From a virus, in the UHGV virus genome UHGV-1709880: a stretch of DNA of 10,367 nt; one strand, given 5' to 3'. Below the pieces are notes generated by a model. That model saw only the letters and a program-made list of their open reading frames with translations, did no database searches and was not told where the DNA came from. Numbering within the stretch: the stretch's first letter is position 1; every line of letters begins with the position of its first letter. This document shows, one piece after another, positions 9,540 through 9,794 of the stretch. The position numbers and the translations under genes were made by a program.

Positions 9540-9794
9540 ATGACACACATGATCTTTCGTCATGGCGACATGAAGAAGTGGAAAGGCGTTGGCTACGACT
9601 TTGAAATCGTGAAAGCCGAAGAGATTCAGGAATATCTGAATGCTGGTTGGTTTGCACATCCCGATGACCTTCTGAAGGATGTTGCAGAGCCAGAGCCAGA
9701 GCCAGAGCCAGAGCCAGAGCCAGAAGAAAAACAGCGTAAAAAGCCTAGTCGAAAACCTAAGGCGGCAGCAGATGAACCTGACAACGAAGGGTGA
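9540..9794 (+). CDS. Hypothetical small protein with a Glu-Pro repeat linker, 84 aa
   Basis: RBS GGAGA 6 nt before ATG 9540. Translation [84 protein letters not shown]. Lies between coat and gp4 and overlaps the gp4 start by 23 nt. Confidence 0.55.
9687..9722 (+). repeat. Perfect hexanucleotide tandem repeat (GAGCCA)x6 inside the 84-aa ORF, encoding (EP)6
   Basis: Read directly: gagccagagccagagccagagccagagccagagcca at 9687-9722. Confidence 0.95.

What the first reader, a model, noticed from the sequence alone, without database searches (positions are those of the whole stretch)
9540..9794. Small ORF between the coat and gp4 genes with a perfect (GAGCCA)6 repeat encoding an (EP)6 linker
The 84-aa ORF has a strong RBS, a short N-terminal domain, a Glu-Pro repeat (rigid, TonB-like linker), a basic patch ([11 protein letters not shown]) and an acidic tail. 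The six perfect 6-bp units are slippage-prone, and because the unit is a multiple of 3, copy-number changes would change linker length without breaking the frame. The ORF lies inside the structural gene block right after the coat-gene terminator and overlaps the gp4 start by 23 nt, so it could be a minor virion or assembly-associated protein, or a moron.
Basis: partly seen in the sequence, partly recalled or inferred. Interest (0 to 1): 0.45.

Follow-up and report, generated by a model that had tools for sequence, protein, structure and literature searches.

The report
P22 orf69-family gene, variable EP spacer
The small ORF is a real, conserved but uncharacterised phage gene, the counterpart of phage P22 orf69, that always sits between the coat and gp4 genes; its Glu-Pro spacer is encoded by a slippage-prone 6-base repeat found in 1 to 33 copies in near-identical prophages, always in frame.

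Summary
ORF 9540-9794 (84 aa) carries six perfect GAGCCA units at 9687-9722, follows the coat terminator, has a GGAG ribosome-binding site and overlaps gp4 by 23 nt.

It belongs to PHROG 1175, the unannotated family of P22 orf69. Family members lie between the P22-type coat and gp4 genes in every context examined, including six distant environmental ones.

The N-terminal 49 codons are under purifying selection in this frame. AlphaFold gives a confident small beta-hairpin/helix domain followed by a disordered remainder.

Copy number runs from 1 to 14 in 63 short-form loci (62 related loci plus the window) and reaches 33 in complete E. coli genomes. It is always in frame. Loci with identical 1.4-kb flanks differ by 3-4 units.

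Providencia-type homologues vary (EP)n or (EQ)n at the same spot. Salmonella orf69 has no repeat and no length variation.

Distant relatives end in a basic patch, an AT-hook core (RGRP) or a helix-loop-helix-like tail.

My best reading is a three-part tether protein that acts in DNA packaging or head completion and tolerates any spacer length. That function is inferred. It resembles lambda gpFI only in gene position and layout, not by homology. It is not a moron. Interest is moderate.

The parts
8200..9495 (+). Coat (major capsid) gene, upstream neighbour
   Evidence: Pfam P22_CoatProtein, E 1.8e-166
9501..9530 (+). Stem-loop plus T-run after the coat gene (terminator-like). P22 and Sf6 have an annotated stem-loop at the same place.
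   Evidence: Terminator scan gives stem 9501-9522 followed by TTTATCTGGA. P22 stem_loop and Sf6 'terminator' annotations.
9530..9533 (+). GGAG ribosome-binding site of the small ORF, 6 nt before the ATG. The left boundary of the exchangeable allele cassette lies at about 9534.
   Evidence: Sequence; blastn of the window against long-allele loci
9540..9794 (+). Small gene, 84 aa: member of PHROG 1175, the family of P22 orf69
   Evidence: phrog_1175 E 3.4e-35 over 1-72/72. P22 orf69 matches the same family at E 4.5e-31.
9540..9686 (+). N-terminal folded domain (aa 1-49): beta-hairpin, helix, G-W-x3-P motif, second helix
   Evidence: AlphaFold2 pLDDT 87-92 over residues 1-40. 21 of 30 polymorphisms fall on codon position 3, with 20 synonymous to 10 non-synonymous. 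G36, W37 and P41 are (nearly) invariant in 89 family members.
9687..9722 (+). (GAGCCA)6 coding for (Glu-Pro)6: a hypervariable in-frame microsatellite and the right boundary of the allele cassette
   Evidence: Copy number is 1-14 in the 63 short-form loci, 1-5 in 15 long-form loci and up to 33 in complete E. coli genomes. Cassette boundary.
9723..9791 (+). C-terminal tail [23 protein letters not shown]. The basic Pro-rich patch is K64-K74, nt 9729-9761. The last codons double as gp4's Shine-Dalgarno (AAGG in CCT AAG GCG) and start codon (G ATG).
   Evidence: Codon comparison of the window, P22, Proteus phage, L094 and L098. pLDDT about 53, i.e. disordered.
9772..10272 (+). gp4 head-tail adaptor gene, 166 aa, overlapping the small ORF by 23 nt
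   Evidence: Pfam P22_Tail-4 E 1e-58; phrog_637 'head-tail adaptor Ad3'
9679..9771 (+). Rejected feature: an upstream extension of the gp4 frame from ATG 9679, which would read the repeat as (Gln-Ser)n. It is annotated this way in phage Dewey.
   Evidence: ORF 9679-10272; Dewey annotation. The extension is closed by TAG in L103 and has no ATG in the long-allele extensions printed. No family match.

Best explanation
The ORF is a genuine late gene. It is the Escherichia-lineage member of the P22 orf69 family (PHROG 1175), an uncharacterised accessory gene of P22-type head modules placed between the coat and gp4 genes and usually translationally overlapped with gp4.

Its product has three parts:
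1. A roughly 45-residue folded beta-hairpin/helix domain.
2. An acidic, probably extended Glu-Pro spacer.
3. A short basic Pro/Gly-rich patch that is a degenerate AT-hook-like element.

The spacer is encoded by a pure hexanucleotide microsatellite. Replication slippage expands and contracts it faster than point mutations accumulate. The unit is 6 nt, so the frame never breaks, and the spacer is only a tether, so lengths from 1 to 33 units persist.

The repeat is also the right-hand junction at which alternative N-terminal modules (short, or with a WDGH domain) are exchanged. The tail stays linked to gp4.

Inferred function: the protein links DNA, through the basic tail, to a partner bound by the N-domain during DNA packaging or head completion. 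This is analogous in gene position and layout to lambda gpFI, but not homologous to it.

My estimates for the steps are: real gene of the orf69 family about 0.95; slippage-driven, tolerated length variation about 0.9; DNA-binding tail about 0.5; packaging or head-completion role about 0.35.
For: Family and position.
- phrog_1175 E 3.4e-35; P22 orf69 E 4.5e-31 to the same family.
- The same position is held in P22, Proteus phage V3 and Pseudomonas phage PfAn1.
- Six of six distant representatives lie between PF11651 coat and PF11650 gp4 genes.

Coding.
- 21 of 30 variants in the first 147 nt are at codon position 3, with 20 synonymous to 10 non-synonymous against 19% synonymous expected. The gp4 control gives 50:12.

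Structure.
- N-domain pLDDT 87-92; residues 50-84 about 53.

Repeat dynamics.
- 1-14 units in 63 short-allele loci (62 related loci plus the window) and 1-5 in 15 long-allele loci, all in frame.
- 5, 6, 13, 24 and 33 perfect units in complete E. coli genomes.
- Arrays are homogenised to GAACCA (L008, L011) or GAGTCA (L079).
- With identical 1,419-nt flanks, L008 and L011 have 14 and 11 units, and L040 and L083 have 13 and 9.
- Providencia-type homologues (the Proteus/Providencia lineage) vary (EP)2-5 or (EQ)5 at the same position. All 12 Salmonella-type clusters recovered are 69 aa with no repeat.

Tail.
- The basic residues are kept through synonymous codon differences between lineages. They are also present where the gene does not overlap gp4, as in L098.
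- Of 103 representative small members, 63 have a basic patch and 12 a canonical RGRP core. About 13 instead end in an ...ELGIKFDGR...-type helix-loop-helix-like motif.

Cassette.
- Homology between the window and long-allele loci stops at 9534 and resumes inside the repeat. The flanks are 97-98% identical.

N-domain relatives.
- The helix/G-W part of the N-domain recurs 4-9 times in the non-catalytic part of phage homing endonucleases.
Against: - No experiment or paper on orf69 function was found.
- From general knowledge, P22 and Sf6 virion and tail-machine studies and P22 amber screens never needed this product. It is at most accessory.
- DNA binding is inferred from motif type only. The window's patch (KKPSRKPK) lacks the RGRP core.
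- The whole protein is acidic, with a net charge of about -2 minus the number of units. With 33 units it is very acidic.
- The last roughly 8 codons are constrained by gp4's Shine-Dalgarno and start codon, so part of the tail's conservation is not about the protein.
- Within E. coli the tail's substitution pattern is uninformative (3 synonymous, 6 non-synonymous).
- There is no sequence or fold match to gpFI or to any solved structure.
- The N-domain motif also occurs in secreted Firmicute repeat proteins, so it need not bind DNA.
Confidence: 0.55

Rival explanations
1. Translational-coupling leader only. The ORF matters because ribosomes finishing it reinitiate on, or unfold, the overlapping gp4 start just after the coat terminator. 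On this view the peptide itself has no function and the repeat is neutral filler.
For: The 23-nt overlap is mirrored in P22 (17 nt), Sf6 (26 nt) and the Proteus phage (23 nt). The ORF's last codons contain gp4's AAGG Shine-Dalgarno and ATG at a conserved distance. Any spacer length is tolerated.
Against: The N-domain amino-acid sequence is under purifying selection. The fold and motif are conserved down to about 25-30% identity in 328 representatives. The basic residues are kept through synonymous changes and also where there is no overlap. Some relatives have a gap, or another gene, before gp4.
Confidence: 0.08
2. Minor virion or injected protein. The protein is packaged with the DNA or bound at the portal or capsid, and the spacer sets a distance in the particle.
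For: The gene lies inside the structural block. A 7-15 kDa acidic protein is easily missed on gels. The basic patch could hold it on packaged DNA.
Against: A structural spacer would not be expected to tolerate 1-33 units, which is about 0.6-20 nm if extended. From general knowledge, P22 and Sf6 particle inventories and reconstructions list no such protein. Nothing here tests this option.
Confidence: 0.12
3. Host-directed or anti-defence accessory ('moron-like'). This would be an acidic, DNA-mimicking or DNA-binding small protein that acts on a host or defence factor, with repeat length varying under diversifying selection.
For: The N-terminal module is exchanged as a cassette, including a WDGH-domain version. 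It is hypervariable and very acidic. Its function is unknown.
Against: There is no own promoter. It has a fixed position in the late head module across genera and environments, unlike morons. Late expression suits defence evasion poorly. The PADLOC defence library was not searched, and no anti-defence library was available.
Confidence: 0.1
4. The repeat belongs to an N-terminally extended gp4 (197 aa) that starts at ATG 9679 and reads (Gln-Ser)n, as annotated in phage Dewey.
For: ORF 9679-10272 is open in the window. GenBank annotation of Dewey; the match table for Louie also lists the adaptor gene over the repeat region.
Against: The extension is closed by a TAG inside the repeat in L103, and none of the long-allele extensions printed contains an ATG. 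GAAGG abuts the ATG with no spacing. The 166-aa gp4 from 9772 matches PF11650 from its residue 2 and has the same length as the annotated P22 gene 4 (501 nt). The extension matches no family.
Confidence: 0.02

Closest known systems
Salmonella phage P22 orf69 (NP_059631; PHROG 1175, 'unknown function')
   Same: Same PHROG family. Same position between gene 5 (coat, followed by a stem-loop) and gene 4, with an overlap onto gene 4. Same layout: N-domain with E-Y-x3-G-W-x2-H-P, acidic linker, K-P-x-K-G-R-K-P-K-A patch and acidic end.
   Different: About 30% identity. P22's linker (PVEADDV) is not repetitive, and all Salmonella-type clusters recovered are 69 aa. The window's lineage has a pure hexamer microsatellite with 1-33 units.
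Phage lambda gpFI (Pfam PF14000 Packaging_FI; PDB 2LSM), DNA-packaging chaperone
   Same: The gene lies directly between the major capsid gene and the head-tail joining gene. It is a small protein made of two modules joined by a long acidic linker. By general knowledge it is an accessory rather than a particle component. Its reported role is to bridge capsid and the terminase-DNA complex (PMC13595911).
Glu-Pro spacers of TonB and trypanosome procyclin (EP/PARP)
   Same: Alternating Glu-Pro dipeptides. The only Pfam hit is a sub-threshold compositional match to Trypan_PARP (19.6 bits against a cut-off of 100). Such tracts are known as extended, rod-like spacers (general knowledge).
   Different: No TonB C-terminal domain, membrane anchor or Lys-Pro array, and no signal or GPI features. 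The resemblance is one of composition only.
AT-hook (R-G-R-P core) and helix-extended-loop-helix (HeH/SAP-like) DNA-binding motifs
   Same: Twelve of 103 representative family members carry RGRP within a basic patch at the position of the window's KKPSRKPK. About 13 carry an ...ELGIKFDGR...-type tail instead.
   Different: The window protein lacks the RGRP core. The HeH assignment is by pattern only. Pfam and PDB profile searches and hhalign against Rho and gpFI were not significant.
Bacterial contingency loci (phase-variable simple-sequence repeats)
   Same: An intragenic microsatellite whose copy number changes faster than the flanking sequence.
   Different: The unit is 6 nt, so there is no on/off switching. 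Only protein length changes.

Membership tests
P22 orf69 family (PHROG 1175) | Significant full-length match to the family HMM | tested here: met
   E 3.4e-35, residues 1-82 on profile 1-72/72. P22 orf69 itself scores E 4.5e-31.
P22 orf69 family (PHROG 1175) | Gene located between the P22-type coat gene and gp4 (P22_Tail-4) | tested here: met
   Window coordinates; P22, Proteus and Pseudomonas phages; six of six distant representatives
P22 orf69 family (PHROG 1175) | N-domain motif (Y/F at position 6, G36-W37, P41) followed by a low-complexity linker and a basic patch | tested here: met
   Alignments A1, A4 and A5
Lambda gpFI / Pfam Packaging_FI (PF14000) | Sequence match to PF14000 or to gpFI | tested here: not met
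   No Pfam hit at E<=0.1. hhalign of the family profile against gpFI gives probability 0.8%.
Lambda gpFI / Pfam Packaging_FI (PF14000) | Fold of the gpFI C-terminal domain (PDB 2LSM) | tested here: not met
Lambda gpFI / Pfam Packaging_FI (PF14000) | Gene between the major capsid gene and the head-tail joining gene; two modules joined by an acidic flexible linker | tested here: met
   Lambda map and sequence; window layout and AlphaFold disorder
Lambda gpFI / Pfam Packaging_FI (PF14000) | Stimulates terminase-prohead interaction and DNA packaging | not testable with these tools
   Needs in vivo or in vitro packaging assays
TonB-like proteins | Glu-Pro array followed by a Lys-Pro array, an N-terminal membrane anchor and a TonB C-terminal domain | tested here: not met
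   Only the Glu-Pro array is present. There is no TonB Pfam hit and no hydrophobic anchor in the sequence.
AT-hook | R-G-R-P core flanked by basic residues | tested here: not met
   The window has K-K-P-S-R-K-P-K. The core is present in 12 of 103 representative family members.
Phase-variable contingency locus | Repeat-number change shifts the reading frame or promoter spacing to switch expression | tested here: not met
   The unit is 6 nt. All 78 complete related ORFs, five E. coli genome copies and L103 stay in frame.
Moron | Own promoter and terminator, sporadic presence, not part of the conserved module | tested here: not met
   No promoter-like site in 9300-10000; conserved position

The most novel reading that the evidence does not exclude
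The orf69 family could be the unrecognised DNA-packaging or head-completion chaperone of P22-like phages. On this reading it is a functional analogue of lambda gpFI built from different parts: it binds DNA through its AT-hook-like or HeH-like tail, and binds procapsid, portal, terminase or gp4 through its N-domain. The slippage-prone Glu-Pro tract would then be an evolvable tuning knob. Each unit adds one negative charge and about 0.6 nm, so copy number would set the reach of the tether and mask the basic patch to varying degrees.
Probability: 0.15. Interest if true: 0.7.

Novelty: new member of a known kind. Interest (0 to 1): 0.4.

Why it matters
P22 is one of the best-studied assembly systems in virology. 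Even so, the small gene between its coat and gp4 genes has no assigned role.

This work shows three things about that gene:
- It is a conserved, selected component of P22-type head modules in many hosts.
- It has a recurring three-part layout, and its C-terminal element is swapped between two DNA-binding-like motif types.
- In E. coli prophages, natural variants with 1 to 33 spacer units already exist.

Together these turn an ignored ORF into a testable candidate accessory factor for packaging or head completion. They also supply a ready-made allelic series for experiments on linker length.

The practical points are modest. The repeat is a fast-evolving marker for typing P22-like prophages. 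It is also a source of annotation errors, such as extended gp4 calls and an unannotated ORF.

Tried and rejected
1. Pfam, NCBIfam and PDB sequence searches gave nothing usable for the ORF or the family profile. Pfam gave only a sub-threshold compositional Trypan_PARP hit; the others gave nothing.
3. Homology to lambda gpFI is rejected by hhalign, at probability 0.8%.
4. The HeH-like tail profile aligns in register with gpFI residues 2-22, but this is not significant (E 0.013, probability 3%). It has no match to the Rho N-terminus or to PDB.
5. Homology of Sf6 gene 6 is not demonstrated (hhalign probability 6%). I treat it only as an analogue in position and layout.
6. The N-extended gp4 reading is rejected.
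7. The upstream GTG 9492 start, used in some JGI gene calls (the '[16 protein letters not shown]...' extension), is rejected because it would run through the coat stop codon and the terminator hairpin.
8. The conserved ...NEG end looked like an interaction tip. It is instead forced by gp4's conserved Thr-Lys-Gly-Asp codons in the overlapping frame, and K-A by gp4's AAGG Shine-Dalgarno.
9. Literature searches for orf69, HKbT, small ORFs of P22-like phages and Glu-Pro repeats found nothing relevant. The Popovic et al. gpFI paper is not held.
10. My coat-gene control in the substitution analysis was misaligned by intergenic indels and is discarded.

Full report
**Context.** The window is the late region of a P22-like (Lederbergvirus-type) phage or prophage.
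- It encodes an Rz-like spanin, a Rha/antirepressor-like gene, several unknown ORFs, small and large terminase, portal, scaffold and coat. These are followed by the ORF in question, gp4 and the start of gp10.
- The nearest phage records are Escherichia phages Dewey, HZ41, IME10, APC_JM3.2, Louie and CurroJimenez_Bas106, at 92-98% identity.
- 217 of 5,426 complete E. coli genomes carry the same segment.

**Observation.**
- The ORF is 84 aa, at 9540-9794.
- It contains six perfect GAGCCA units at 9687-9722. TRF reports 6.7 copies at 100% identity, and there are 0 chance matches in 200 shuffles.
- GGAG lies 6 nt before the ATG. A hairpin plus T-run follows the coat stop codon.
- The ORF overlaps gp4, which starts at 9772, by 23 nt.

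**It is a real gene of a known but uncharacterised family.**
- The protein matches PHROG 1175 ('unknown function') end to end at E 3.4e-35. P22 orf69, the annotated ORF between P22 genes 5 and 4, matches the same family at E 4.5e-31.
- Proteus phage V3 and Pseudomonas phage PfAn1 have homologues in the same position.
- A profile search of 1.84 billion representative proteins finds 328 members at E<=1e-3, mostly 60-130 aa.
- I looked up six distant members with different tails (P0241, P0231, P0226, P0329, P0314, P0292). All are encoded between a P22-type coat gene and a P22_Tail-4 gene. Most abut or overlap the latter.
- Within the E. coli lineage, 21 of 30 polymorphisms in the first 147 nt fall on third codon positions of this frame. 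The ratio is 20 synonymous to 10 non-synonymous, against 19% synonymous expected by chance. The gp4 control shows a similar pattern.
- The competing reading extends gp4 upstream from ATG 9679 and reads (Gln-Ser)n, as annotated in Dewey. That extension is closed by a TAG in L103, and none of the long-allele extensions printed contains an ATG.

**Anatomy.**
- AlphaFold2 with an 89-sequence alignment gives a confident N-terminal domain: a long beta-hairpin, a helix, the G-W-x3-P turn and a second helix. pLDDT is 87-92 over residues 1-40.
- The Glu-Pro tract and the tail score about 53, i.e. disordered or extended.
- No solved structure or Pfam family matches the domain.
- The tail contains the basic patch [11 protein letters not shown]. 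Comparison with P22, the Proteus phage and two distant members shows the basic residues are kept through synonymous codon differences. They are also kept where the gene does not overlap gp4.
- The last codons, however, are dictated by gp4. K-A supplies the AAGG Shine-Dalgarno, D supplies G-ATG, and N-E-G-stop mirrors gp4's Thr-Lys-Gly-Asp.

**The repeat is hypervariable.**
- Eighty IMG/VR loci have gp4 at 98-99% identity to the window.
- 63 short-allele ORFs (62 related loci plus the window) have 1-14 units, spread broadly. Fifteen long-allele ORFs have 1-5 units. All are in frame.
- Five complete E. coli genomes have 5, 6, 13, 24 and 33 perfect units within intact ORFs. The +/-1-nt length differences seen in BLAST lie in the intergenic spacer upstream of the ORF start.
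- Arrays are internally homogeneous. Some consist of a variant unit amplified many times, such as GAACCA x10-12 or GAGTCA x4. This is the signature of slippage.
- Two pairs of loci with identical 1,419-nt flanks differ in copy number: 14 against 11 units, and 13 against 9.
- The Proteus/Providencia lineage, about 30-45% identical, shows (EP)2-5 or (EQ)5 at the same linker position. Salmonella orf69 has no repeat and is 69 aa in all 12 clusters recovered.
- Eight of 103 representative family members have three or more Glu/Asp-Pro units.

**Modularity.**
- A second allele at the same site (PHROG 3769, about 195-203 aa) has a diverged N-domain followed by a WDGH domain (PF25311, E 1.3e-39). It then has (EP)1-5 and the same tail.
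- Homology between the window and these loci stops at 9534, just after the ribosome-binding site, and resumes inside the repeat. The flanks are 97-98% identical. The repeat is therefore the right junction of an exchangeable cassette.
- Across the wider family the C-terminal element varies. It is a basic patch in 63 of 103 members, includes the canonical AT-hook core RGRP in 12, and is an ...ELGIKFDGR...-type helix-loop-helix-like motif in about 13.
- The helix/G-W portion of the N-domain also occurs 4-9 times in tandem in the non-catalytic part of phage homing endonucleases (PHROGs 314 and 655). It also occurs in secreted Firmicute repeat proteins.

**Mechanism.**
- Shown: this is a selected protein with a folded head, a freely variable acidic spacer and a basic tail. 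It is fixed in the head module next to gp4, and its spacer length is driven by microsatellite slippage.
- Inferred: the two alternative tail types are both classic DNA-binding peptide motifs, and the gene is tied to the coat and gp4 genes. From this I propose a tether that links DNA to a head, portal, terminase or gp4 partner during packaging or head completion.
- The closest analogue in position and layout is lambda gpFI. It lies between E and FII and has two modules joined by an acidic linker. It is reported to bridge capsid and terminase-DNA.
- Homology and fold similarity to gpFI were tested and not found.
- Counter-points: the protein is acidic overall, the window's patch lacks RGRP, part of the tail's conservation is explained by gp4's initiation region, and by general knowledge P22 assembly studies never required this product.

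**Verdict.**
- The prediction of copy-number variation is strongly borne out.
- The 'moron' option is rejected.
- 'Assembly-associated' remains the best but unproven reading.
- The gene itself is not new. It is annotated as 'hypothetical protein' in hundreds of genomes, and APC_JM3.2 even annotates the repeat region.
- What is added here: its family identity, its conserved position, its modular architecture, and the size and speed of the length polymorphism.

Noticed in passing
L028, L031, L038, L045, L054, L060-L062, L065, L068, L069, L075-L077, L084 (about 1912-2523 in each); corresponds to window 9535-9690: A second allele of the same gene (195-203 aa, PHROG 3769) carries a WDGH domain (Pfam PF25311, E 1.3e-39) between a diverged N-domain and the Glu-Pro tract. 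It replaces the short N-module as a cassette bounded by the ribosome-binding site and the repeat. I found no literature on the WDGH domain.
   Followed up: partly
Proteins P0210, P0219, P0220, P0233, P0236, P0252, P0264, P0266, P0284, P0303 and others; also P0253, P0256, P0262, P0312, P0313: The helix/G-W part of the N-domain (…E-L-x2-Y-L-x2-G-W…) is repeated 4-9 times in tandem in phage homing endonucleases (PHROGs 314 and 655). It is also repeated in secreted Firmicute proteins with …Y-A-P-D-G-R-T…G-W-Y-x-x-P units. Pfam has no model for this repeat.
   Followed up: partly
GenBank records PQ850600 (Dewey), NC_019501/JF974339/JN600960 (IME10), MG197996 (APC_JM3.2): Annotation is inconsistent at this spot. 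Dewey calls a 197-aa gp4 that reads through the repeat, plus a truncated 45-aa ORF. No small ORF is listed under the match in the IME10 records. APC_JM3.2 labels gp4 'recombinase RmuC' but does annotate the repeat_region. Some UniRef and NCBI names call the small protein 'dihydrolipoamide acetyltransferase', presumably because of the Glu-Pro linker.
   Followed up: yes
Protein P0006 (93 aa, E. coli): One variant has an in-frame 13-residue duplication ([13 protein letters not shown] twice) inside the N-domain. This length change is independent of the hexamer repeat.
   Followed up: no
window 765-1532 and 1763-3049: Between the Rz-like spanin (195-665) and small terminase (3144) lie a Rha/antirepressor-like gene (PHROG 518) and several ORFs of unknown function (PHROGs 322, 571, 1365). 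This looks like a variable accessory cluster.
   Followed up: no
window 6885-6913 and 4671-4705: There are two other short tandem repeats. A 12-nt unit ACAGCAGCCGCA x2.4 lies near the 3' end of the portal gene, and an 18-nt unit x1.9 lies in the large terminase gene. Both are in-frame lengths.
   Followed up: no
E. coli genome hits H22 (NZ_CP026085) and H27 (NZ_CM135829): Two assemblies labelled 'DH5alpha' carry this P22-like prophage segment at the same identity as E. coli W (97.6%). That is unexpected for a K-12 derivative and suggests strain mislabelling.
   Followed up: no
Alignment A6 against lambda gpFI residues 2-22: The helix-loop-helix-like C-terminal tails of some family members (T-R-x-E-L-…-L-G-I-…) align in register with the N-terminus of lambda gpFI (T-K-D-E-L-I-A-R-L-R-S-L-G-…). 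The match is not significant (E 0.013, probability 3%), but it is a lead for a shared motif in reversed domain order.
   Followed up: partly
L087 1686-1871 (Sf6 gene 6): Sf6 gene 6 (61 aa) holds the same position and has a similar layout, with a short N-part followed by …K-R-G-R-K… and an overlap with the gp4 homologue. Homology to the orf69 family is not demonstrable (hhalign probability 6%).
   Followed up: yes
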